From assembly GCF_000372725.1 (NCBI RefSeq), contig NW_005201298.1:249393-313392 (forward strand): DNA of 64,000 bases, given 5' to 3'. Both the position numbers and the translations under genes were made by a program. The notes below the pieces were generated by a model. The model made no database searches. It saw only the letters and a list, made by a program, of their open reading frames with translations, and had not been told where the DNA came from. This document shows, one piece after another, positions 6,846-59,300 of the stretch (position 1 is its first letter; each line of letters begins with the position of its first letter). This DNA comes from Emiliania huxleyi CCMP1516 (taxonomy: Eukaryota).

Positions 6846-7260
6846 TCAGTTGCCCTTCTTGACCTTCGGCAAATCGGCTTTGAAGACGGGGCAGTCAGGC
6901 TTGACGTGCCCCTCCTCGCCGCACCAGAAGCAGGTCTTGGCGCCCGACTTGCCCGACCGCTTCGCCTCCTCGGCGGCCCGCTGGGCCTCCGCCGCAGCCG
7001 CCTCCGCCTTGGTGACGCGCTTGGCGAGCTCGGCCAGCTCCTTCTTGAACGACTCGACTGACCTCTCATGCTCGCGGTAGACGTCGTCGCGAAGGATCCG
7101 GTCGAGCGGCAGCTCCGGCAGGCCGCGCCCCGGGTACTTGCGGAAAAATCGCTCGATGTAGGTGAAGAACTGCTTGCGACTTGGACGACTTCTTCACCAG
7201 CAGCGAGTGCAGGTGCGGATTCGCCTCGAGGCAGTGGTACGCGTGCAGCAGCTGCTCCAA
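6846..7260 (-). mobile_element. Gag/ORF1-like remnant with coiled coil and CCHC zinc knuckle
   Basis: Manual translation ...SFKKELAELAKRVTKAEAAAAEAQRAAEEAKRSGKSGAKT-CFWCGEEGHVKPDC-PVF...KGN*. CX2CX4HX4C motif; 5' part frameshifted. Confidence 0.7.
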
Positions 7261-7662
7261 GAGACCTCGAGAGAGCGTGCGTGTGCCAGGTGTGTCACAA
7301 AAAGATTAACAACGAAGGCGCAAAAAAAAATACTCGGGCTGTTGCCATCCCAAACTGTCACTCCCCTTTCTCCCGGCCGGGGTGGGGCGCGCGCGGGGGC
7401 GGCGGGTGTGAGGGATGTCTGTGAGCCCGAGAGCGATATGCCATGTCCGCCTTGCGTGTTTTCATAACATCGAAGGCTAAGCTCAAAAAAAAAGAATTCA
7501 TCGCTCGTCCTGGACATGGCATTCGCTCCTCCGCCACCTTTCGCCTCGGCCTCGACCGCGCTCGCATCGCGCGCCGCACCTGCATCCTCCCGCATCGGTG
7601 GAAAGCACGCGTGCTCCAGCGGCTGCGCGGCGACGCGAGCTCGGCTTGCGCGATCGCCCGCC

Positions 7663-10600
7663 ATGACGCTGGCAAACTCACTCGCTCTCACGCTGCTGGC
7701 GGTTTCCTCTTCCTCGGCGCGCCTCGTCCCGCTCGCGCTCCTTCTTCTGGCGGGTCGCTGCGAGGCCGGGGGCACGGTCTGCGACAACAACGTGCCATGC
7801 TCCGGCTGCCTACCGGCGTGTACGGCACGTCGCTGTGCGACGGCACCTACACGGGCACCTGGGTGTATCTGTCCAACCCAGGGCTGTCGCAGCTGCAGGA
7901 GCTTGACCGACGGCACGGTTATCTGTCCAACCGAGGGCTGCTGTCGGGGACGATCCCTCCGCAGCTGGGCGACATATCGCAGCTGCAGGAGCTTGATCTG
8001 GGCAGCAACTCCATCTCGGGCACCATCCCTCCGCAGACGAGCAAGCTCTCGCAGCTGAAGAATCTTAGACTGAACGACAATGACATCTCCGGCACCGTGC
8101 CGTCGCAGCTCAAGAACCTGCCGCTGACGTCCTGCGAGCTGGGCGGCACCAACCACTTTGCCTGCCCCCTGCCCGCCCTTCCCAACGTCTGCACCTCGGG
8201 AAGTATTTTCGATGTACTTGCAGGCATGACTGGCAGGACGGGGGTGGGCTCGGACTCCCTTCCTGAGTGCAACTACCCGCCGCCCTCGCCGCCCTCGCCG
8301 CGGCCCTCGCGGCCGACCTCGCCCTCACCGCCGCCCTCGCCGCCCTCGCCGCCGCCTACGCGCGACTTCTGCGGCTACGCGCCCGCGATTTGCGACGGCA
8401 CATACACCTACAATACTCTGGACCTCTCGGGCCGCGGCCTCACAGGCTCGATCCCAAAGCAGCTCGGGAGCTTCGCTTTGACTCGGATCGAGCTGGAGGG
8501 CAACGACTTTTTGTACCCAAGCGACGCGGCTAGTTTGGACGGCTTGCAAGCTGCCCTGCAGCGCTGCCGAAGCGGCGAGGCGACCTGCACCGGCGTGCCG
8601 CCAAAGTCCTGCACAGCCTTCGCAGGCCTCTGGGAAGTAAACATCAAAGACACTTTCGAGTGCGTCAATTGCGACTCCTTTCGAGAGTCTATGACTGCCG
8701 CCATCGCCGGCATCGCCGCCCTGGCATTGGTGGCGCTAGCTGCGCTCGGGTGGTTTGCAGCGCGCATTCTCCGCCACCCGACAGCGATGAAGCGGTGGGT
8801 GTCGACCGTCGCCATCTTTGTCAATCACGTGCAGATGGTGTCCCTCATCGGCTCGCTCCACCTAGAGTGGCCGCGGTCTCTCGAGATCATCATCGAGATA
8901 CTGCGGCTGCACATCATTGCTCTGCCGGACGCGAGCTGCCTCGTCTCGCCCGACGTAGTATTGACGCTCTACGCGGCCATCATGATCGCTATCATGTCGC
9001 TTATGCTGGCCCCGCTGGTTGTCAATTATGCTGCTGAGCTGGCCCTCCTCCTTTGCCAGGCGATCCTCCTCCTCCTTCACGAGGCTGGCCTATTCGTGGT
9101 CGTTTCTTTGCTGTGCGTTGCGGACTTTTGTGCGAGGGTCATGGGTCACGCGGGTTTCGACAGCTGGCGGCTGATTGCTCGTGGCTTGAGGACTGTCAAG
9201 TCAGGCATTGACAGAGCCTCAGCGAGCCTATCAGCCCACCGGCTCGCCTTGCGCCACAGCGGATTCCGCGACAGCGCCGAGCTCGTGCACAGCATCGCCT
9301 TTGCCGTCCTGCTCACCTCCAGCTGGAGCGTCATCATGGACGTCCTCTCCTTCTACATCCCCGACCCGCTCAGCCGCCGGTGGCACCCCGACACGCTGGA
9401 CTCGCATCAGGCGGTGTTTGCGTCGCTCATAGTCCTCGTCTGCGTCGAGCCCTTGCTTGCCTACCGGCTCTTTCAAAACGTGATTAGCTTCCGGCGAGGT
9501 CTCGACAGCGGCGAATGGCGCTCGCCTCCCGTCATCTCGTGCTCATGTGCGGCCCGTGAGCTAATCTTCCCTCGCCGCCTTGAGCGGCAGGTTGCTTTCC
9601 TCACGAGCCGCTTCGCCGGCCATGCCAGCAGCTGGCAGCTCACGATCTGGAGGCGTCAGCTGGTCATCTTCTCCCTCGCGGTTGGTAGCCGGGTTTCGCG
9701 GGACCATGTCGAGTCTGCAACGCTCGAGGCCGCCTTGCCGTATTGCTTCGCGTCCGCCGCCATCGCCGCCATCCTCTTCTTCTGGCACGAGCACGAGCGG
9801 GCCCAGCCGTTTGTCTACCTGTTTCAGAACGCCCTCGAGTCCTGGCTCTTTCGCTCCAACGTGCTGCTGCTCGTGCTCGCTTGCGTCTACACCGCGCTTC
9901 CCGGCGACCGGGTCGCCCACATCGTTCTCGAAATCCTCCTCGCCGCCGTTCTGCTCGGAGGCCTCGTCGCCGGCGGCGTGTACGCCGTCCGGCAGCTGCG
10001 GCGCACCAAGGAAGTGCTCGCCTCTATTGACTTCACCGCCGCGCTGGCCTCCGCGGACAGCGTTATCGACGCCATGCTGAAGGAGCGCCTTGACGATGGC
10101 TCGATCCGGCTGGTCAGCGGCAGCTGGATGCAGTCGCCGGAGGCGGACGCGAGCCTTGCACGCGACGACAGCGGAGCGGTCATCATGCGCCGTCGACAGG
10201 AGCTTCCTGAAGACGCTTTCGTCCCGTGCGATGAGGCGGTGGCGTTGCTCGAGCGAGGCGACCGGTCTATCGTAGTCCTCTCTTACGGATGGCTGACGGC
10301 GCTGCACCCGGATCCGCACGGCACCACGCTCGCCTCTGTCCGCCGCTTTCTTGAGTCTGACGCGGCCACGCAGGCGGCGAAACGAGTGTCTCCGAGGAGC
10401 CTCGAGCAGAATCCGTGGAATGTGCCTGCCACGAGCGAGGGAGCCGAGGCAAGCGATGTCGGGCTCTTTTGGGACTTTGCGAGCCTCCCTCAGAAGGGCC
10501 CAAACGGGGAGGAGAAGACCGAGGAGGAGAAGAGCATATTCGGGCGAGGCCTCAAAGTGATGGGGAACTTCTACGCGAGCGTGACCGGCACGGCGGTGAT

Positions 10601-11315
10601 CCAGCAGCGCAACATCGACCTCCCGCCAGGCGCGACCACCGGGTTCGGGCCGGGGGAGTACAACCCAACGCCGTACGAGGGCGAGGGCGGCCGCGGGTGG
10701 TGCATCTTCGAGCAGGGCGTAGCGATGACGGTGCTGGCGCACCTGACAAAGGCGAGGCAGGAGGCTGAGGCGCGAGGCAGCGCGCTGTCGGATCGCTTCC
10801 AGAGGGCGGAGTCGAGCCGCGCAAAGGTGTACGACATTAGTAGTGCGGCGGCACCAGTGGCGCGGGAGTGTGAGAGGAGGCCGCTAGAGGTGCTCGATGA
10901 GGCGTGCGCAGAGATCGCAAAGGCGCGCTTCACGGGCACGGCGGACATGGACACGGTGCCGCATATGCTGGCGGAGTTCGAGTGGACAGTGCGCAACGCC
11001 GCCTTTCAGGCGCTCGAGCAGAACCCGGCCTCGACGGGAGTCACTGTCGATCTCCAGGGTCTCCTGCCTGCGAACGCGGGGGGGCGTGGCACGCTGCTGC
11101 AGCGCAGTCTCGCTCGCGCGCGATCTCTCTCCCGAAAGCTGCCGGGGACGCGTGTCCGCCGAGGGGCCGAGAGAGGCATAGCCTGGCTGGAGATGGCTGA
11201 GGTACGCTTGAGCACTGCAAGTGCCAGCCAAGGCCGCGCAAGCAGCAAGCATGACGAGACGGCCGCACCTGATCGGCGCCGGCCGCACGTGATGGATCAG
11301 AGCTTGTACGTGTGA
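7663..11315 (+). CDS. LRR ectodomain / multi-pass membrane / cytoplasmic HET(TIR-like) domain receptor; frameshift near 7810
   Basis: Signal peptide from ATG 7663. Plant-type LRRs (LSGTIPPQLGDISQLQELDLGSNSISGTIP), Pro-rich linker, many hydrophobic segments, then VLSYGW..HPDP..LFWDFASLPQ..MGNFY..RGWCIFE. Confidence 0.8.
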
Positions 11316-11461: not shown

Positions 11462-11690
11462 TCAGAAAGAGTTATTACCGGTCGCTTGGCCACTACTAAA
11501 TCTAAAGTCCGCGTCGCCGCCGCGGCTCGCCTCGCGCTCGCGAAGGGCGGCCAGCTTCGCGCGCAGCGCCGCCAGGCCGCCGCCACCCTCCCTGGACTCG
11601 GGCCCCGCCGCCGCCGCGCCAGGCTCCGAGGCCGCCGCCGTCGCCGCGTCGCCACTCGCACCTCCTCCTCCTCCTCCTCCTCCTCCGCCT

Positions 11691-11773
<83 letters not shown>

Positions 11774-12193
11774 TCCTCCGCCGCCGCCGCCGCGCGCTGC
11801 CCTCGCTGGCGCAGGCGCGTGCTGCGGCTTCTCCCAGCTCGTCTCGCCCGACTGCTCGTTCCAGTAGTACGTGCGGCCGCTCTCCTTGTCCAGCGCGGCG
11901 CGCCACGGCGAGGGGGTGTCGGGCGGAGGGCCGCGCGAGGGCGGGGAGGGGGCGCCACCGCGCGCGCTGCCGCCGCGCGCGGACGCCTCCTCGCGCGCGG
12001 CGCGGGAAGGGAGGGGAGGCAGCAGCGCGCGGCCGCGCGCGGCGAGCGACGAGGCGTTGAGAGCGCGCGGCCTGCGCCGGACCTCCGCCTGAACGACCGC
12101 CCGCTCCGCCGCTGCGCCTGCCGCCTTGCCCGCCGCCTGGCCTGCCCCCGCGTCGGCTGCCTCGTCCGTCGCACGCACCGCCGCCCAATCCAC
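11462..12193 (-). CDS. WW-domain protein with poly-Gly tract (ends uncertain)
   Basis: PSPWRAALDKESGRTYYWNEQSGETSWEKP is a canonical WW domain; (GGC)n at about 11660-11790. Confidence 0.6.
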
Positions 12194-12519
12194 CTTCCGG
12201 CCGCGTTGCGGCGCCGCCTCGCCGAGTTAGAGGCGGCTCCGACTCGGCCGCGGAGCGCCCGCCGTCCCGCCGCCTTTGGTTACCCGCGACGGCGCCGCTA
12301 TGCCGCTCGGCGGCGATCGACTGCAGAATGACACGCCGCCCATGCTGCTCGGTCCGCCGCCTCTGGCTACCCGCGATGGCTCCGCGTTGTAATCAAGTCG
12401 ATGCAAGTCAAGGCTCGCGAGCAAGCCCCCCACTTGTGCTCAGGTTCTGCCTTCTGAATGCACTCTCCCTTCCCCGCGCTTTCGCAGGTCCATCCCACAT
12501 GGGCCCCGCGGGGGAGGCG

Positions 12520-44093: not shown

Positions 44094-47000
44094 AGCCGCC
44101 GCCGCCGCCGCCGCCGCCGCAGCAGCCGCAGCAGCAGCAGCAGCAGCAGCAGCAGGCCAGCAGCAGCCTGCCGCCGCCGCAGCAGCCGCGGCCTCCGCCG
44201 CCACAGCAGCAGCCGCCTCTGCAGCAGCTTCAGCCCCTAGAGCCGCCGCCGCCGCAGCAGCAGTCCCGGCCGCGGGTGAGTGAGCTCGAGGCCGCGCAGC
44301 GGCTGCAGCAGTGGCCGAGGGGAGGGGTCGCGCTGCGGCCGGACGGGGGAGGGACGCTTGGCAAGCCCGTCCGGCTCTTCTCCAACTTCTCGCCCGTCCG
44401 CGTGAGGGAAGGCGGCGTGGAGGTGCACCAGTACTCGCTGGCGTACCTCAAGGGCGAGGGAGAGGAGCTCGAGCTCCGGACAACGCAGCGGCGGCGCGAC
44501 GTGCTCCTCGAGTTCAAGGACAACATCGACGTCGCTTTTGGCGTCCGCGAGGGGGCAGCGTGGGTGTGGGACGGGGACAAGATCTTCATCTCGACGCGGC
44601 GGATCGACAGCCTCTCGATGGAGCGGCCCGGCCTCAAGCTGACGTGGCAGTACGCGAGGTCGCTCCGGCTCGAGGGCGACCACCGGGAGGTGTACCAGGC
44701 GCCGTCGCTGCTCTGTCCCAACCCCTCTGCGCGCTATTGCAATAGAACCCCCCCCCCCCCCCCCCCGACTGGACAGGTGTACGACCTCGTGCTGCGGCAT
44801 GAGCAGTCGATGATGTTCAAGGCGGTCGGCAAGGCCATCTTCAACCCGGACCGGCAGACCTGGCGAGACAGGTTCCAGAACCTGAACAAGACGCTGTGGC
44901 TCGGCCACCGGCAGAGCGTTGTCCGCGGCGAGGGCGGCACGCCTATGCTGCTCGTCGACAAGGCGGTCACTTGCGTGCTGCGGCCGGTTAAACTCATCGA
45001 GTTTCTCTGCGTCGAGCTCGGGCTGCGGCAGCACCGCAAGCTGAGCACGCAAGAGCTGGCCGCCGAGCTGCGCAAGCCAAAGGTGCTCGCCGACGTCCGC
45101 AAGCAGCTCAACAAGCGCAAGGCGAGCCCCCTCCGCCTCCGCGCCCCCACCCCTCCTCCCTCCGCCTCTGTCTCCACCCCCGCTCCACCATCTACCCACC
45201 GCGCCGCCTCATTCGCAGGTGACGCACCGCCACCCGCAGTACGCGGAGTGGAGCCAGCGCTGGGAGGAGCACAAGCGCAAGGGCAAGAGCGGCATCGGTC
45301 CGAGCCGCCCCCTCACCGACGTGAGCGACAAGCTGCCGCGCGAGCACTTCTTCGAGACACCCCAGGAGCTGCGGCAGCAGCACCCCGCGGCTGAGATCTC
45401 GGTGCAGGACTTCTTTCGGCTGCGGTACGGCATCGAGCTGAAGCACCCCGAGCTGGTTCTGGTCGGGTTTGGGAAAGGCGGCCGTAACCTCGTCCCGATG
45501 GAGCTGTGCGACTTCGTCGGGGGCGAGGCGGCGCGGCTGGCCACGGCGGATGAGCGCTCCAAGCTGGTCAAGGAGACCTCGCAGCCTCCGGCGCAGCGAC
45601 TCGAAGAGATTCGGACATTGCAGAGAGACGTCGGCCGCGACGCCACTTGCCGCGCGTTCGGGCTCGAGGTCGGACCGCTGCTGGACAACGTGCCCGGCCG
45701 CGTCCTTCCGGTGATGAGCCTCGGGTACGGGCCCGAGAACAACCCGCGTGTCGCGATTCCAGAGGCGGGCGGCAAGTTCCGCGGCAACTGGCGCACCCCG
45801 CCCGGCGCCACGTACATCCGACCTGGAAACGTGCAGCGGTGCGTGGTGGGCCTTTTCCCGCCATCCGGCAAGGATCACCAGCACTTCCTCGACGTGGGCG
45901 GGCTGCAGCGTGGGCTCAGCGGGCTGATTGCGGATGCGGGGAAGCTGGGCCTGAATCTCGACTTTGGGCCCCTCGTCCGCCTCGAGGGGAGGGAGGTCCG
46001 GCTTCAGGACCCCTCGCTGCTGATGTGCCTCCGGGACACGTCCAGCGCCGAGGAGGTGGAGCAGGAGCTGGCGCGCGCCTTTGGCGAGCTGGGGGACAAT
46101 GTCTTGCTGCTGGCGATTATCCCTGACCAGAACAATAACGCGCGCCCCTTCTTGTCCGCGGCGCCCCAACGCACGAGACTCCCACCGTCCCTCCCTTTTG
46201 TCTCACGTAGGCGTGGCAGCACCCCATCCGGGCGACCAACAAGGCGCTCTGCTCGCGCATCGGCATCGCGGTGCAACACTGCAAGGTGAACAAGTTCAAG
46301 TCGCCTCCGCCGGTTTAAGCGCTCCGCTCCTCGCCGCTTCTCTTGCGCTCTCTTAGACCCGACTTCCGGCTACAGGGCTACTGGAGCAACCTGCTGGACA
46401 AGCTCAACCTCAAGGCGCTCGGCACAAACTACTACCCGCTGTGCGAGGTGCCCGGCGGCGGCTTGCAGCCCGGCTTGCAGCTGCTGCGGGAGTGCCCGAC
46501 GTTGCTGCTCGGCTGCGATGTCCACCACGCCGCGCCCGGCTCGAGCAGGCCCTCCTACGGCGCGCTGGTCGGCACGGTGGACAAATTCTTCTCTTCCCAC
46601 TACACCGAGGTGCGGGCAATGACTGGCCGGCAGGAGTGCATCCCGGTAGACGACATGCAGAGCATGGTGCGCGAGCAGCTGAAGGCCTTCTACCGGTACA
46701 ACGGCATACCTCCCCAGCGCATCATCTGCTATCGCGACGGCGTGGCGCACAACCAGTTCGAGGAGGTGCACGAGGTCGAGATACACGCGATTGAGCGGGC
46801 GTGCCACGCGATTGAGCAGGGGTACCAGCCTCAGATCGTCTTCATCGTGGAGCAGAAGGGCGGCGGCGCGCGCTTCTTTGCGAACGAGAATGGGCGCGTG
46901 CCCGGCCAGCAGATGGGCAACCAGCCTCCTCTCACGGTGGTCGACACTGTGGTGGTGGACGAGTCGACCTTCAGCTTCCACTTGACCCCTCACCACGGCA

Positions 47001-47281
47001 TGAAGGGGACGTCTCGCGGCAACCTGTACTCTGTGCTGCGCAACGACCCCAACCTCTCCTCCGACGACCTGCAGCGCTTCACGAGCCAGCTCTGCCACCT
47101 CTTCCAGCGCTGCAAGAAGATCGTCTCCAAGGTTGCCCCAAACTACAACGCTCACCTCGCTGCGGAGATGTGGGGGCTCAAGGAGGAGCGCGAAAGCTTC
47201 TCCGACACGGCCTCGGTCAGCAGCGACGCCGCCGCATGCGACGTGCACGAGCGCCTGAAGACGCGTCTCTTCTACACATGA
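43469..47281 (+). CDS. AGO: Argonaute (PAZ, MID, PIWI) with extra N-terminal domain and P/Q linker; introns include 44699-44776 and 45122-45218
   Basis: GTLGKPVRLFSNF, SVQDFFRLRYGIELKHP..VPMELC, KLNLK, LGCDVHH, RQECI, PQRIICYRDGV, HHGMKGTSR, LCHLFQRC, YNAHLAA. Confidence 0.95.
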
Positions 47282-50760: not shown

Positions 50761-50909
50761 AAGGCCAACCCGTGCAGTCGAAGACGAAGAGAAGTAAAGA
50801 GAAAAAGAAAAGTTAAAAAAACAGGAAAAGTAAATGGGAGCGGAACAAAAATAGAAAAAAAAAATCCCGCTGTGCACGGCGTGCCAACCTCCTGCACCCC
50901 CCCCAGTCT

Positions 50910-53900
50910 ATGTTCGCCGTTCTCACCCTCGTGCCGGCGGCACCGGCGGCGACTGAGCCGTGCACCTGTGCTTTGAATTGGACGGATCCAGACAGCGGCC
51001 ACGCTTGCAGGGAGCCGCAGTTCGGTTGCCCGCCGGTTGCGTGCGACGGACCGTACCCACCGTGGTGCGTCGTCGAGTCGCTGCCGTGCGCCGACCCTGA
51101 CCCTGACTCAGGCATCAACACTGGCTTGTACGGCGGAAATTGGATTCATTGCGAGCCGGAGTATTCGCCAACGCCGCCGAGTTATCCGCCGCCGCCGCCC
51201 TTTGCAGTTGTGCGAATCGGCGCCCTCTTGCCGCGGCAGCTGCCAAGCGGCGAGTTGATGCACCTGGGTCGGGCAGAGGAGCTGACGTCCGTGCTCATGG
51301 CAATCGAGGAAATCAACAACAAGACAGACGGCGTGGCGGACGATCTGCTTCCAAACACGCAGCTTTTGCTCGCACACCGCGACTCGCGCTGCGACCCGGC
51401 ATTCGGCAGCGACGCGGCCTACCAGCTACTGCACCACGCGTTCGACGGCGCCGGCTGCGACGCGCTGGTTGGTGCATACTGCTCAAGCGCGTCCATCCCC
51501 GCTGCGAGGCTGGCGGAGCTGACGGCCACCCCGCAGGTACTCACTCTAAGAGGACCGTGTGAGTGTTGCTTATGCAGTCTATAACGGTTGCTGACTCAAC
51601 TGCTATTAGGTCTCTCACTCCTCTCAGAGCCCGGAATTGAGCGGCGACGACTTTCCCTTCTTTGCGCGGGTTGTCACCTCTGACTCCCTCATGGCTGTGG
51701 CTTTGGCTGAGGCCACTCGAAATCTCCTCGGCGTCAAGCGCGTGGCCACCATTGCGTGCACGGACGCATACTGCACCGCCGGCGTGGCGGCCTTTGAGGC
51801 GGCTGCGTCTGCTCAAGGAATCACCATCATTGAGTCCGTCCGCTTCGAAAACGGTCAGAGCAACCTCGGCGAGCCCCTCGGTGCTTTGCGCGCCTCGTGT
51901 GCGACCGTCTTTGTCGCCATTGCTCTTGCAGAGGATGCAGATCGCCTTTTGGAGCAAGCCCTCGGTGCACGGCTCGTCGGCCCTGAATTCACCTGGGTTG
52001 GCGACATCGGTCTGTTCGAAGGGCTGGGCTCGCTGGCCGGCCGTGGCCTCCCCGTGGACGATTTCCGCGGAATACTCGCGATCACAAACTCAATCGCGCC
52101 AAGCGTGGCGTACGACGGCTACGCCTCTCGCAAGCGCGCACGGCCATCCACGCTCGGCGACGGGACAAATTGCGACCCGGCAGACGACGACGAGGGGCAC
52201 AAACTCTGGTCAGTTGATACGGATGAGGATAGAGCGCCACGCTGCTTCGGTGCCAACAATCAGTTTCCCGAGAGCGTCTATGCCCCGAGAGCTTACGATG
52301 CTGTGTACGCTGTGGCGCACGCAGTGCAAGCGCTGGTGGACGACCCGTTGGTTCAGCGTATCGACGGCGACGCTCTGATGGCGGCCCTTCTCGCCGTCCG
52401 GTTCGACGGCGTGACGGGCAAAGTCTCCTTCTCGTCCGAGCCGGCCACCCTCGGCGACCGCGCGGGTGGCGTCCTTTACGATGTGATGAACGTGAACGCG
52501 TCAGGCGCGTGGGTCAAGCTTGGCACCTGGCAGCCAGCCGACAACTGGGAGCAGAGCTTTGCCGGCAACGGTCAGGCGCTGACGAGGCCAACGCCCGACA
52601 ACAGCAAGCCGCCAGAACTCGTGGGCGACACGCTGCGCGTCGGAGTCTTTTGTGATGATCATGTTGGCGAGTCGGAGTGCCAGCATGTGATGCACATCAT
52701 TGACCGGATCAATGACAAGAAGGACGGCTTCCTAGACGACTTACTTCCGGATCACACGCTCTTCTACTCTATGGTTCAGACAGGGACCACCGGCTGTGCC
52801 GAGTCTGAGGCCATTCGACGCCAGTTCGATCAGCTGTACTCCGACTTGAATGGAGTAGTCGCCACCATCGGCCCGTTCTGTTCGGATGACGTGGCTGCTG
52901 TGACAGCCGCCGAGTGGCGCGCTGGAGCCGACATCTCTACCGTCGTGCTCTCGCCGTCGTCGACGGCTCCGATCTTGGCGAACGTGGGCGCATACCCGAA
53001 CCTGTTGCGCCTCTCGAGCAACGACAAGCACGTCACGTCCGCCGTTGCAGCACTCGCAGAGCGGCTGGGATGGCAAGCCATTTGCGTGCTCCATGACGAC
53101 GGTCTATGGGGACGCGGGGTCATGCAGTCTTTCACCTCAATCTTTGAGAGCTCAGGTGGGAAAATCGTAAACAATGGCACGGCGGAATTTTCCAAGGCAG
53201 CTTTTGACGGCGGCAACTTGACAGGGAGCGACCTGCTCGACCAGCTCGAAGACTGCCAAATCATCCTCCTCGTCGCCTACCCGGATGCGCAGCGGGCTGT
53301 GTTTGCTGCCTCCTATGACGAAGGTCGGCTTTGGGGGCCGGGCTACGCTTGGCTCAACGCGTATCCGGCTGAGGAAGCCCTCTACAATGCAGATGGCTCG
53401 GTGAACTCGTCCGCTGTGCATGGCTCGGAGGGGTGCTCGGAGTCATCGAGTCATCCGGCGTGAGCAGCGCCTCCGACCTCAGCCTAAAGTATCAGGCGCT
53501 GTGGGATGAGGTGTCGAGCAGTCAGGGCTGCACCAACATGAGCCCGCAGTCCCGACCCTTCTGCGACCACGACGACGACGCCTCGACGCTTCCCGATTAC
53601 ACGGCAATGTACGTGGATGCAGTGATCAAGCTCGCAGTCTCTGCCGATGCTGCGATCCGCAACGGCTCACGGCCAGGAGACGCAGATGCGCTGTACGCGA
53701 CGATGCTGGCAGCTGACACCGTGACGGGGCTGAGCGGGCCTCTTGTTTTCGACGACAGCGGAGATCGACTCGGTACCTTGGAGGTGCTCAACTACCGGCT
53801 GCTCACCGAAGCCTCTCAGTCAGGGCGCCGCCTTAGCTCGGTACTTCTGCCGCGTTCGTTGCTTGAGTTCTCAATCGTGGGCAGCTACTCTACCGCAACC

Positions 53901-55707
53901 TCGACACTGCAGCTGCCAGACGTTGGCGCTCTCGTCTTCTCCGGGGGATCGACGGAGGTGCCACAGCACTCCTCCCCTCCTCCACCGCCTCCGCCGCCAG
54001 CACCTCCTCCTGAGCCGCCGTTGAGCACTGGCGTACTCGTCGTGATCGTCTTGCTTTCGGTAATGACACCCGTCGTCGTGATTTGGGTCGCCGTTCGAGA
54101 GTGGCGCCGTCGGCGGGAGCGCGAGCACGAATGGACAAGACAGCAGTGGCTGAGATATCTCTCAACGGGCCAGCCCGTGCAGCTGGAGCCGCTCACAGAC
54201 GGCAACAAGTACCATCTCTTTCTGTCCCATTCGTGGCTTTCCGGACAGGATATGCATAAGGACGCTGTCCGAGTGATGAAGGAACGGCTGCTCAATCTCT
54301 TGCCGGACACGAAGATCTTTCTCGACGTGGACGACTTGGCGTCCGGGCGAGGCGCAGCCGAAGTTGCTATGTCCAAGATTCTCGTCGTCTTTTTGTCGGA
54401 TGGCTACCTCACGCGCCCCAACACCGTGCGCGAACTGCTTCGGGCGATGAGCCTGCAAAAAATCGTTATCACCGTCTACGATGAGCGCAGCGTCTACATG
54501 GACAAAGGTGTGCTCCGAGCAGCGATCGAAGCAGCTTGCCTGAACCTTTCGAGGTGGGGTCTCGACGGCGACTTGGCGGCCTGGGGCGCAGAGGTCCCGA
54601 CCACGGCCGACATCTTTGCTGCGCTGACAGCACAGCCTCTCCTGTGGACTCGTGTCCCAGCTTTCATGAACGTCACTTTGCAGGCGTGCGTGACACCGCT
54701 GGTTCAGCCCAAGGCGCCCATGTTGCGACCAAGCGCAGACGGGAAAGCGAATCTCTCCCCGGAGGCGCTCCAGCGCACAGTCGAGATGCTGGTTCAGCCC
54801 AAGGCGCTCATCTTGCAATCTGTCCCGTCTTGGGCGCAGAAGGGGCTTGGTCGCGCAGACGGGAAAGCGAGTCTCTCCCCGGAGGCGCTCGAGCGCGCAA
54901 TCGAGATGATGCAGGCTGCTGCTGAGCCTGGCGCGGCGGCTTCGACGAGGCTGTACACGCGAGCCGGCATTGGCTTCACCTGGCAGAGGCTCCGCGCTGG
55001 AGAGAGATTTCGAATCTACGCCAGCCCACACAACCCCGGCGCGCTCGAGCTCACCCAGGAGCTGTCTTGCCTGCTGCAGCACCTCGACATAGAGCTCGAA
55101 GTGACGACCTCCGTCGCCGACCTCACGGCCTGCAGCCACATGCTGCTGTACCTCGACAAGCGCACCTGGGTGTCGACGGAGAATGACCAGCGGATAGCCG
55201 CGCTCTCAAGCGACGTGAAGGCCGCCCTGGCCGGGCGCGTTCACCTGCTTCCGGTTCACGAGAGCGAGCCGTTTGAGTACATGGCGGGCAGCCACGCCGG
55301 CGTCAAGTTCGACGACCTCCTCGACTGCGTGGATGGCGCGACCCCCATCGAGCTGCTTCAGCGACAGGTGAGTCCCCGCGCTCCCGCTGCATCATCAGCG
55401 CGTAGCATAGTGCCGTCGACTCGCCTCCACCTCTGTCTCTCAGGTCTACGCGGAGGTTGCGGTGCCGCTCAAAGAAGGCATCTATCGGCCCGCAAGCCTG
55501 CTGCTGCTCGCACGCGCTGTCGGCGACCAGACGCGGACTTCGGCGCTGCGGCAGCTCACTTTTTCCTCCAAAGAGCTGCGCCTGCCCTCTATGACTTTGG
55601 CGGAGGGCAGTGCGAGTCTGATGAGCCGGACGAGCAAATATTGCCGCTCTCTCTCGAGCCGGCAGAGCACACCACACGGACGCAGGAGGGCGCTCCCTCC
55701 TCTCTGA
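50910..55707 (+). CDS. Receptor with Cys-rich N-terminus, two Venus-flytrap (ANF-receptor type) domains, one TM, TIR and a second TIR-like domain; introns 51537-51609 and 55368-55443; frameshift at 53430-53433
   Basis: VFT1 MAIEEINN..LLPNTQL..DSRCD..VGAYCSS..FPFFARV..AYDAVYAVAHA; VFT2 IGPFCSD..YPNLLRL..LGW; TM GVLVVIVLLSVMTPVVVIWVAV; TIR YHLFLSHSW..IFLDVDDL..VVFLSDGYL..VREL. Confidence 0.85.
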
Positions 55708-56327
55708 GGGTTGGATGGTCCGGACCTGCCCGGCATTTGGGTACCACTTTGCCCACGCTGCAGTCGCGCTGCCAAGGCCTGCTAGCATCTTTGGTACCAC
55801 GCGTGCCGTCGTCCTCTGTCGTCCTCTGTCGTCCTACGTAGAGATAATGTACAATTGCAATACGGTATCTTGTAGTACGGCCTTATAGCTAGTAGTGCAG
55901 TTACTGCACACTGCACTCGCATGAACTGCCTTGTTAAACATAAAGAGACGAAGGCGCTCACACTCGAAACGCTGCGATCGCGGTGTCGGCAGCGTGACGA
56001 AGCCGCCCACAAAACACGCAAGCACACACACAGGCACAAGCACATACACACAGGCGTCTCCATAGGTGTGCTATGAATCAGCAGCCAGACCTGGCCCATC
56101 TCTCAAACGTCCAGCCTCCCCCCCCCGCCCCCGCCCCGGGCTACCCCCCCCCCCCCCTCCCCCTCCTTCCGTACGCCGCCCGTCTCTGGCACCCCCCCTT
56201 GCCAGCGGTGGCCCGGCTCGGCCGCCCTGCTGGCACACGCACCCCCTCCCCGCCCGCGCCTCTCTCCGGAGGGACACAACTGCGGCGCGTCGACGAAGCT
56301 GCGAGATTCCCCGAGATTGCCCCGCGA

Positions 56328-59300
56328 CTACCGGAGGACGAACTGCGACGTGTCGACGAGGCACGCCGCCTGGACGGCCGCCGGAGTCAGCGGCGCATCG
56401 ACGTGCAGCGGAGGCTGCTTGGACGCGTCTCCCGCGTCGGCGCGCGCCGCGAGGATCGCGGCGCGTGCGGCGAGGAAGGCGGCGGCGGCGAGCGCCATCG
56501 GCGGCTCCGCAGACGCCTTGGAGTGCAGCGTCGCGCCCGGGGCCGGGTTGGGCGCGCGCGGCAGGAAGGAGACGTTGAGCTCAAGGGGGATGTCGTGCAC
56601 AGCCGGCACCTGTGCTCCCCCCGCGCCGAGCGTGGGGAATCGGAGGTGTCTCGGAGGTGTCTCGGAGGTGTCTCGGAGGTGTCTCGGAGGTGTCTCGGAG
56701 GTGTCTCGGAGGTGTCTGGGAGGTGTCTGGGAGGTGTCTCGGAGGTGTCTTGGAGGTGTCTCGGAGGTGTCTCGGAGGTGTCTCGGAGGTGTCTCGGAGG
56801 TGTCTCGGAGGTGTCTCGGAGGTGCACCTTGTACTCCCACGTGCCGAGCGTCGTCGGCGCGCCGCTCGGCGAGTGGGAGACGACCTCGGGGAAGAGAGAG
56901 CAACGCCGGTTAATGACAGGGAATGATGGAGAGGAATCGCTCGGCGGGCGGGAGACGGCCTCGGAGAAGAAGAGGCCGAGCGCCATGACGAAGCCCCCCT
57001 CGACTTGCCCGAGGTCGATCTCCGGGTTGAGGGGCGTCCCCTGGTCCATGAGCAGGTCGGCGCGCAGGATGCAGGTCTCGCCAGACAGCGCGTCGATCTC
57101 GACCTCGCAGATTAATCAGCACTACTCAGCACTACTCGGCACTGGGTCACCGACGGCGGGTCGCGCTCTCCGCCTCGCAGCACGCCACGCCCGAGGTTGC
57201 GTAGTCGAACTTGGGCACCCCCTCGGGCGCGGCCCCGCCGAACCAGCCGCTCGCCGCGAGGGACACGCCTACTCACACCCTCCCCCTTCCCCGCGGGCGC
57301 CTTTCCCTCCACCCCAGCCGCTCCCCCCACGAGGGAGTCGCCCGCGTCGGTCGCCGCTTTGACTGTGGCCTCCCACGCGCCCTCCCCCGCCGCGCCAGCC
57401 GCCGGCCGGAAGGGGAGCAGGCGAGCGTTGAGCGTCTCCGCCGCGTCCAGCACCGCCTTGGCGACGCACTCCGGGGTGTGAAGGGAGGGGCTGGTCAGGC
57501 GCTAGTCAAGCGTCCAGCAGCGCGCCTTGACGACGCACTCCGAGGTGGCAGAGCCGCCCGTGTCGGCCGAGCCGGGCGTGGCGAGCGACGAGGTGTCCGA
57601 CACAGACACGCCGCCGAGCGGGCAGCCGAGGGCGAAGGCGGCCGCCTGCGCCGCCTTAGTGTGGATGCCCTGCCCTAGCTCGCACCCTCCGTGGGCCAGC
57701 CGGACGGACCCGTCCGCCAGCACGCCGAGCGAGCAGCCCTCCTTGTACGCGCCTCCGTTGTCCTCGATGCCGTACTTGACGGGGACCATCCTCAGCCCGC
57801 GCTTGCGCCACCGGTTGGAGCGGTTGAACGCCTCCACCTGCTCACGCCAACCAATGCGAATCAATGCTGGCCAATGCGAATCCATGCCGAGGAATGCGAA
57901 TCCATTGTGAGTAATGCGAGTCCATGGCGAGTAATGCGAGTCAATGCGATTGCAATAGGTTGGGGCGCGGTTTTCGAGCCCCCGCCTGCTCGCGCCGCGC
58001 CGCAACCTCCCACCGCGCCTTCGCGGACTGCCACATCGCCGGCAGGTTCCAGTTGAAGCCGTTCTCGCCCACGGTGACGCCGCAGAGGGCCGCGTCCCCC
58101 GTGGCGTACAGGTTGGCCTCGCGCACCGCGTCCGCCGGCAAGCCGACCGCCTCGGCCGCAGCCTCCATCGCCAACTCGTGCAGCGGGATGGTCTGCACGA
58201 CGCCGGGAGCTCGGCACGCGGTGCTGCCTACGTGTGGGACGAGGCGAGATTGCGCGAGACTGCCCGAGACTGCACCACCCCCCCGGGGAAGCGCGCGGCG
58301 CTGCCTACGACGCCGGAGTTGTAGAACGAGCCGTGCACCGCGAAGTCGTCGGCGCGGTACGCGTTGTCCGCCCAGCAGACTCCCATCGTCAGGTCGCCTG
58401 TCGAGCACCAATTAATTAATTACCAATTTTAATTAATTAATTAATTATAATCAATACTCCCATCGTCAGGTCGCCTATCGAGCACCAATTGACTGACTGT
58501 TCGTCCTTCGCCACGAATCAGAGCAGGCGCCCGTCGTCAGGTCGCCTGTCGAGCACCAATAATAATAAATAATAATAATATAATATAATATAACTCCCGT
58601 CGTCAGGTCACCTGCGCCGCCGTCGACGACGCCAGAGTCGAACGCCGCGGTGAGCTCGATTGACGAGACGACGCCGCCTGTCGGGACATGTCGCGGACAT
58701 GTCCCGGACGTGTCGCGGCGCTGCGGGGAGCTCGAGAGGGGATGGTACGCCACCCTGGTCCACCGCGAGCCGGAAGGAGCCCTCCATCGGCGGCCGGCCG
58801 CCCGTCGACGCCATGTCGTCCGAACGGTCGTTGTGCAGCCGCACGGGGCGGCCGTGCTTGGCGGCGGCGACGGCCGCGGCGATGGCCGTCGGGAGGTGCG
58901 CGTTGAGCTTGCCGCCGTACGCGCCGCCGATACGGCGCACGCGCACGTCCACCGTGGCGAGGGGGAGGCCGAGCGCGCCTAATCTCGGGTAATCTCCGGT
59001 AACCTCGGGCAATCTCGCCGTCCACCGTGGCGAGGGGGAGGCCGAGCGCACCCGCCACCGCCGTCTGCGTGCGGGTTGGGTTCTGGTTGGCGCAGGTGAT
59101 GGAGAGGCCGCCTCCCTCGACCTACAATAATGAACGGGCTCCTCTTAACGAACTGATCGGTATCGGTGATGGAGAGGCAGCCTCCGTCGACCGGCAGGGC
59201 GAGCGCGGTGTTGGTCTCAAGGTAGAAGTGGCGCTGGCCTGGTATGGACCAGTGAACCCATTAGTAATCAGCGTCTTGCGGGTCACCATAGGAGGACACA

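What the first reader, a model, noticed from the sequence alone, without database searches (positions are those of the whole stretch)
7663..11315. LRR / multi-pass membrane / HET-like domain receptor
Seen: signal peptide, two LRR blocks each preceded by a CDGTYT cap, a Pro stalk, roughly 8-10 hydrophobic segments by eye, and a C-terminal domain with SYGW, FWDFASLPQ, M..FY and RGWCIFE. Established: this motif series matches HET domains, which are TIR-related cell-death effectors of fungal allorecognition. Inference: an algal surface immune or cell-death receptor. With the VFT-TIR gene it suggests a modular receptor toolkit.
Basis: partly seen in the sequence, partly recalled or inferred. Interest (0 to 1): 0.72.

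Follow-up and report, generated by a model that had tools for sequence, protein, structure and literature searches.

The report
Algal nine-pass Toll-like receptor family
This gene belongs to an algal family that joins leucine-rich repeats, a predicted nine-helix membrane core and a predicted inner domain distantly like TIR/HET immune domains, so it likely senses something outside the cell and would cut NAD+ inside, although this copy has a one-base frame break after its signal peptide.

Summary
The motifs are real, but the gene as assembled is not one frame. The signal peptide (ATG 7663) is out of frame with the LRR-membrane-domain ORF, and paralog contigs carry one more base at 7808; assembly error versus broken copy is unresolved. 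The architecture is a conserved family, with named relatives in Emiliania, Chrysochromulina and Haptolina. Family hydropathy and charge alternation predict nine helices and a cytosolic C-terminal domain. That domain matches no Pfam HET or TIR model. Its confident model (pLDDT 93) nevertheless follows TIR strand-helix order, and its best, weak fold match is a TIR (Z 4.9). Three of its four motifs align in register with a true HET protein (4 of 1000 shuffles reach the score). Its Glu (149 of 151) sits on the invariant TIR Glu. Relatives fuse the domain to NACHT-LRR, kinase, NUDIX, Tpt1 and PBZ. Best reading: a surface receptor with a HET/TIR-like NAD+-cleaving output; not a Pfam HET member; cell death and immunity untested. 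Multi-pass TIR genes without LRR are published for G. huxleyi, and this scan noted an LRR-nine-helix-TIR layout in another protist.

The parts
7663..7809 (+). Start codon, predicted signal peptide and start of the Cys-rich cap, in a frame that ends at 8056-8058
   Evidence: signal peptide judged by eye, no predictor run
7808..7810 (+). One-base frame break between signal peptide and the rest (assembly error or broken copy)
   Evidence: frames; table 4 (paralog contigs have one more C); (no exact contig spans it)
7812..8277 (+). Ectodomain block 1: CDGTYT cap (7836), about 3 LRRs with a 57-base in-frame extra piece (7883-7939) that paralog contigs skip, Cys cap
   Evidence: table 5
8278..8360 (+). 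Pro/Ser stalk
   Evidence: sequence
8361..8700 (+). Ectodomain block 2: CDGTYT cap (8391), about 2 LRRs, family-conserved Cys cap next to the membrane
8703..9989 (+). Predicted nine-helix membrane core, N-terminus out and C-terminus in; no family name found
9024..9230 (+). 69-residue, partly hydrophobic insertion after helix 3, absent from the 8 homologs aligned
   Evidence: exact contigs cover 8670-9237 without a gap (table 8)
10050..11018 (+). HET/TIR-like alpha/beta domain (core about 10266-10868) with SYGW, FWD, MxxFYAS and RGWCxxE motifs
10710..10712 (+). Conserved Glu (E221 of the domain), the predicted catalytic residue
   Evidence: 149 of 151 sequences covering the column; aligns with the invariant TIR Glu
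11019..11315 (+). C-terminal tail and stop; 82-90% identical to transcript protein P0003

Best explanation
This is a member of an algal family that joins LRRs, a predicted nine-helix membrane core and a predicted cytosolic HET/TIR-like domain, which likely works as a surface receptor whose ligand binding would switch on NAD+ cleavage at the conserved Glu; this copy is frame-broken as assembled and may not be functional. Shown: domain order, family conservation, Glu conservation, fusion partners, the frame break. Predicted: topology and fold. Inferred: ligand binding by the LRRs, clustering of the inner domains, NAD+ cleavage giving an ADP-ribose-type signal or NAD+ loss, and a role in non-self sensing (viruses, bacteria, other cells).
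For: Same order in homologs: 57 of 58 membrane-profile hits among 314 fetched proteins also hold the domain, and 23 of the 57 have an LRR motif upstream (set gathered largely through the domain, with redundant cluster members). L001 holds the whole architecture in one frame with a signal-like start. Lys/Arg per loop alternate 3.0 in, 0.7 out, 3.1 in, 1.2 out, 11.6 in, 0.9 out, 1.8 in, 0.8 out, 3.9 in the tail. Domain model pLDDT 93, pTM 0.91, with alternating strands and helices and WCxxE opening the third core helix. Top fold match is the SpbK TIR (Z 4.9, rmsd 3.1, 98 aligned); 10 of 50 rows are TIR/SEFIR and 7 are nucleoside deoxyribosyltransferase/MilB. The best local profile match to 31 TIR domains is WCxxE on the invariant Glu, and a permissive alignment is colinear from first to last strand. 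Against one Pfam-confirmed HET protein: 2.2 bits, 4 of 1000 shuffles reach it, WxD, MxxxYxS and RxWxxxE in register. Glu kept in 149 of 151. Fusions to NACHT and NACHT-LRR, NUDIX, Tpt1 and PBZ. Protist TIRs can be active NADases (bioRxiv 10.64898/2026.04.20.719644, passages).
Against: No Pfam HET or TIR hit for the domain in any scan. All fold matches are under Z 5; about 20 of the 50 rows are GT-B glycosyltransferase-type folds tied within 1 Z of the top. Profile scores are marginal: P 0.025-0.037 with 1 of 60 shuffles higher for TIR, P 0.055-0.069 for HET by hhalign, and hhalign did not place SYGW on the HET protein's own first motif. HET activity itself is unknown (PMC10890737, PMC10197012, passages). 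No expression or infection data for this family; EMIHUDRAFT_195665 is not in the two supplement files of PMC12489294. The frame break may make this copy inactive.
Confidence: 0.58

Rival explanations
1. The domain is a Glu-dependent enzyme of the same broad fold but acts on another substrate (nucleotide N-glycosidase like DNPH1/MilB, or a glycosyltransferase-like reaction), giving a receptor-enzyme with a different messenger.
For: 7 of 50 fold rows are deoxyribosyltransferase/MilB and about 20 are GT-B type, tied with TIR; the second look ranks TreT and a deoxyribosyltransferase first. The domain is about 320 aa, with an extra N-terminal part and long insertions.
Against: Sequence motifs line up with HET and TIR. 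It occurs in NACHT-LRR proteins and beside ADP-ribose-related domains. No glycosyltransferase family hit in Pfam.
Confidence: 0.17
2. The domain is TIR-like but acts mainly as a protein-binding adaptor, as in animal Toll-like receptors, in non-immune sensing such as prey, mate or colony recognition.
For: Many TIR rows are adaptor TIR/SEFIR domains (MyD88, MAL, TRIF, IL-17R). Relatives carry kinase and PDZ modules. No immune phenotype is known.
Against: Near-invariant Glu, Trp and Gly (149, 148 and 147 of 151) fit an active site better than a binding surface.
Confidence: 0.15
3. This particular copy is a non-functional recombinant paralog (a pseudogene), whatever the family does. This can be true together with the best explanation.
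For: Frame break after the signal peptide; short LRR blocks with a 57-base extra piece; a 69-aa membrane-loop insertion and a 26-aa domain insertion absent from homologs; identity to P0003 jumps from 16-60% to 82-98% near 10200.
Against: 1167 codons without a stop. The copy keeps 47 of the 50 columns that are at least 80% conserved, and its private changes are mostly conservative, with 24 of 28 in the first 110 columns, which fits mosaicism rather than decay. Exact contigs exist in four runs of one study. The break is a short C run, a common assembly slip (own knowledge), and 49 possible GT-AG introns could also bridge the frames (none supported by a joint).
Confidence: 0.4

Closest known systems
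Fungal HET domain (Pfam PF06985), e.g. Podospora HET-E/D/R/B
   Same: Motif series WxD, MxxxYxS, RxWxxxE in register with a PF06985 protein; occurs in NACHT receptors; remote TIR link; HET homologs already noted in Haptophyceae (PMC4986451, passages).
   Different: Below Pfam detection; about 320 aa; C-terminal and behind an LRR ectodomain and nine predicted helices instead of N-terminal in soluble proteins; no cell-death evidence.
Gephyrocapsa (Emiliania) huxleyi TIR genes of Shaler et al. 2025 (PMC12489294)
   Same: Haptophyte TIR domains with the Glu kept, some behind multiple membrane helices and expressed during virus infection (section 20). Table S9 lists a gene with a 100-aa TIR, the value 7 beside 'Transmembrane', and a top AlphaFold hit labelled HET (column heads not seen).
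   Different: The paper states those genes have no LRR or NBS; their domains are 76-128 aa and pass HHsearch to Pfam TIR; the family here has LRRs and a much longer domain. I did not test sequence homology to their genes.
Animal Toll-like receptors (LRR-TM-TIR)
   Same: LRR outside with Cys caps, TIR-like domain inside (TLR layout from own knowledge).
   Different: Nine predicted helices instead of one; few LRRs; divergent domain with a kept Glu; most likely assembled independently (inference).
Enzymatic TIR domains (SARM1, plant TNL, ThsB, SpbK)
   Same: Strand-helix order, WxxxE helix, best fold match SpbK.
   Different: Z under 5, no Pfam match, large insertions, activity untested.

Membership tests
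HET domain (PF06985) | Score over Pfam gathering cut-off (22.5 bits) | tested here: not met
   No HET hit for the window domain (E up to 1), 9 members of A1, 75 hits (E up to 0.05), 9 long hits, or among the 25 of 47 families shown for the 74 members of A2. Sets overlap.
HET domain (PF06985) | Conserved motif blocks in the same order as in a true member | tested here: met
   One Pfam-confirmed member only: three blocks in register, 4 of 1000 shuffles reach the score. The first block matches by eye only.
HET domain (PF06985) | Induces cell death when expressed | not testable with these tools
   Needs expression.
TIR superfamily | Flavodoxin-like alternating strand-helix fold | tested here: inconclusive
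   Order fits; best match TIR at Z 4.9, rmsd 3.1, 98 aligned, tied with GT-B and deoxyribosyltransferase folds.
TIR superfamily | Catalytic Glu at the start of the third helix (WxxxE) | tested here: met
   E221 aligned with the invariant Glu of 31 TIR domains; 149 of 151 conserved.
TIR superfamily | Pfam TIR, TIR_2 or ThsB score over cut-off | tested here: not met
   No hit; a profile of 30 bacterial TIR_2 domains reports no score for the domain.
TIR superfamily | NAD+ cleavage and self-association | not testable with these tools
Toll-like receptor | Extracellular LRR with Cys caps | tested here: met
   outside location is predicted
Toll-like receptor | Single membrane helix | tested here: not met
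   Nine predicted helices.
GPCR / rhodopsin-like or TRP-like membrane core | Sequence or fold match of the membrane core | tested here: inconclusive
   No Pfam family for the core. Fold searches gave only generic helical-bundle scores.

The most novel reading that the evidence does not exclude
Haptophyte algae carry a large, Pfam-invisible class of enzymatic Toll-like receptors, built independently of animals: a shuffled LRR sensor, an unnamed nine-helix membrane core and a HET-type NADase that is also swapped into NACHT-LRR receptors. It is the surface arm of algal immunity against giant viruses, and it offers a tractable proof that HET-type domains are NAD+-cleaving enzymes.
Probability: 0.35. 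Interest if true: 0.85.

Novelty: new variant of a known kind. Interest (0 to 1): 0.6.

Why it matters
How bloom-forming haptophytes sense viruses and bacteria is largely open. The one paper found on their TIR genes reports none with LRRs, so a conserved LRR-nine-helix-TIR-like family that domain searches miss would add a candidate surface receptor class. The domain has 1487 clusters at 50% identity and one predicted catalytic Glu. That makes it a direct test of the open question whether HET-type domains cleave NAD+.

Tried and rejected
Searches with no useful match: Pfam and NCBIfam gave no name for the domain or the membrane core. PDB sequence search with A2 gave 2 chance hits. Foldseek gave nothing at E 0.001 for the domain in PDB or viral models, nor for the membrane core. 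The VIA search of the core gave best Z 8.3, generic bundles including several microbial rhodopsins, so no fold is assigned. ESM Atlas gave only unnamed, mostly haptophyte clusters and no named hit. Bacterial relatives of the domain were not found by pattern scan or in 401 sampled genomes; this is not absence. Viral contigs were not scanned (one search did not complete for that alignment). A bridge search with distant member P0279 found 1 protein. HET reference set: 0 of 401, 1 of 401 and 1 of 81 genomes, the same single gene, so the HET comparison rests on one sequence. Complex prediction for self-association was not available. An intron that would bridge the frames: 49 candidates, none supported by contig joints. 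The 69-aa insertion as an intron: not supported, exact contigs run through it, but the kind of runs X1-X4 is not on record. The long branch of this copy as decay: rejected in favour of mosaicism. Paper searches found no description of this LRR-multi-pass-HET-like family; subscription journals are mostly outside the library and bioRxiv supplements are closed. Passages of 10.64898/2026.09.21.753143 and PMC12480563 held nothing relevant.

Full report
Observation. The + strand holds a stop-free frame from 7425 to 11315. Pfam finds only LRRs. The signal-peptide-like start at ATG 7663 is in a different frame, which stops at 8058. Contigs of four runs of one study were laid on the gene. All contigs covering 7808 at 85% likeness carry one more C there, but they are paralog-like, and at 97% no contig spans 7650-7808. 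Exact contigs exist for 7560-7649, 8379-9237 and 11096-11296. The break is therefore either an assembly slip in a short C run or a real lesion. No whole genome was held, so paralogs could not be counted.

Family. A whole-protein search gave 8 relatives over the membrane and C-terminal parts, among them Emiliania huxleyi EMIHUDRAFT_195665 and a transcriptome protein; the other 112 of the 120 listed cover 25% of the query or less and carry LRR families. The C-terminal domain alone has 1487 cluster representatives at E 0.001 (best 150 listed). Named relatives are haptophytes: Emiliania, Chrysochromulina tobinii and Haptolina brevifila; Atlas clusters are mostly Haptophyta on few records. That the window is a haptophyte is inferred from this. 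Among 314 fetched proteins, 201 hold the domain, 58 hit the membrane profile, 57 hold both, and 23 of these have an LRR motif upstream (redundant, often truncated, and biased by how they were gathered). Metagenome locus L001 has the full architecture in one frame.

Topology. Averaged over 18 aligned proteins, hydropathy gives 10 peaks. Reading one as an outside amphipathic segment, as the short helices of the model suggest, leaves nine helices whose loops alternate between Lys/Arg-rich and -poor, ending with a basic tail. This predicts LRRs outside and the C-terminal domain inside. The core has no Pfam name and no clear fold match. This copy adds 69 partly hydrophobic residues after helix 3.

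The inner domain. It matches no Pfam HET or TIR model. Its model is confident (pLDDT 93, pTM 0.91), with strands at SYGW, FWD and TAV alternating with helices, and RGWCxxE opening the third core helix. The best fold match among 48,161 chains is the SpbK TIR (Z 4.9, rmsd 3.1, 98 aligned). Of the 50 rows, 10 are TIR/SEFIR, 7 deoxyribosyltransferase/MilB, and about 20 GT-B type; all are under Z 5 and the top rows are tied. Against an alignment of 31 TIR domains (30 bacterial TIR_2 plus the window's VFT-TIR), the best local match is WCxxE on the invariant Glu (P 0.037). A permissive alignment is colinear, and 1 of 60 column shuffles scores higher. One Pfam-confirmed HET protein was obtained. The family profile scores it at 2.2 bits, reached by 4 of 1000 shuffles and above the best TIR sequence (1.6; 23 of 31 were reported), with WxD, MxxxYxS and RxWxxxE in register. 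The Glu is kept in 149 of 151 sequences covering that column. The domain is thus best placed as a distant member of the HET/TIR continuum, not as a Pfam HET member; each line of evidence is weak alone.

Context. Relatives fuse the domain to NACHT and NACHT-LRR, NUDIX, TCAD9, Tpt1, PBZ, kinase, PDZ and EF-hand modules, several of which handle ADP-ribose (own knowledge). In a tree of 47 selected domains, the three NACHT proteins nest among membrane-linked ones with weak support (subset of the 94 of 202 with at least 75% of the domain). The window copy is a mosaic: 16-60% identical to P0003 before about 10200 and 82-98% after. It keeps 47 of 50 strongly conserved columns. This supports module shuffling among paralogs.

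Mechanism. Most likely (0.58) the intact family members bind an outside ligand through the LRRs and the membrane core brings the inner domains together. The Glu then cleaves NAD+ to give an ADP-ribose-type signal or NAD+ loss. The domain order and conservation are shown; topology and fold are predicted; ligand, clustering, chemistry and immune role are inferred. Rivals are a different Glu-dependent nucleotide or sugar chemistry (0.17) and a non-enzymatic adaptor (0.15). Separately, there is about a 0.4 chance that this copy is non-functional.

Literature. PMC4986451 (passages) links HET to TIR and notes HET homologs in Haptophyceae. PMC10890737, PMC10197012 and PMC12881547 (passages) describe HET as a cell-death domain; the first two state that its mechanism or activity is not established. 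PMC12489294 (passages, section 20 and supplement searches) reports 15 virus-responsive G. huxleyi TIR genes, some with several membrane helices and none with LRR or NBS; two Table S9 genes have a HET-labelled AlphaFold hit. bioRxiv 10.64898/2026.04.20.719644 (passages) shows active TIRs in protists. Eight paper searches found no account of the LRR-multi-pass-HET-like family.

Verdict. A real, conserved and apparently undescribed receptor architecture: a new variant of known TIR/HET receptor logic. The HET label is softened to HET/TIR-like, and this copy carries an unresolved frame break. Interest 0.6.

Noticed in passing
L123:6345-14241 (G719:C36): A bacterial gene with Pfam HET over cut-off (47.9 bits) lies on the same strand directly after a Thoeris-like run: metallophosphoesterase, CHAT, ThsB-like TIR, ThsA (SIR2-STALD), ThsB TIR, HET. 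One genome only; a hint that HET domains work in NAD+-linked defence.
   Followed up: partly
window 50817-55841 +: Gene with two ANF_receptor (VFT) regions, Pro stalk, one membrane helix and a TIR-like domain with Glu kept. No Pfam TIR hit, but 11.8 bits against a 30-sequence TIR_2 profile, 0 of 500 shuffles. It resembles the leucine-binding-TM-TIR gene described in PMC12489294.
   Followed up: partly
P0308, P0140, P0278: The same domain sits in soluble NUDIX-domain-kinase-like-NACHT proteins, with C-terminal LRRs in Chrysochromulina tobinii P0308. They nest among membrane-linked copies with weak support (77, 70).
   Followed up: partly
P0271-P0277: Relatives in which one copy of the domain is inserted into a loop of the membrane core and a second, split copy follows, some ending in a protein kinase, PDZ or PBZ domain.
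   Followed up: partly
window 7948-8084: The LRR unit draws summed contig depth in the thousands against 8-24 for contigs exact to this copy, suggesting a large LRR family sharing this module; depth is not a copy number.
   Followed up: no
window 45045-47278 +: Argonaute gene pieces (PAZ, Piwi) in separate frames, probably split by introns.
   Followed up: no
window 6846-7193 -: Short ORF with a CCHC zinc knuckle just upstream of the gene, possibly a retroelement remnant.
   Followed up: no
window 11462-12226 -: WW-domain ORF with a run of about 50 Gly codons directly downstream.
   Followed up: no
window 56387-57115 -: Fragment resembling a molybdenum hydroxylase C-terminus (family recalled; bacterial matches), interrupted by a short tandem repeat.
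   Followed up: no
P0010, P0126, P0142, P0151, P0193, P0271, P0272, P0275, P0276: Weak RRM-like matches in several relatives, in P0010 and P0126 inserted between the third strand and the RGWC motif of the domain.
   Followed up: no
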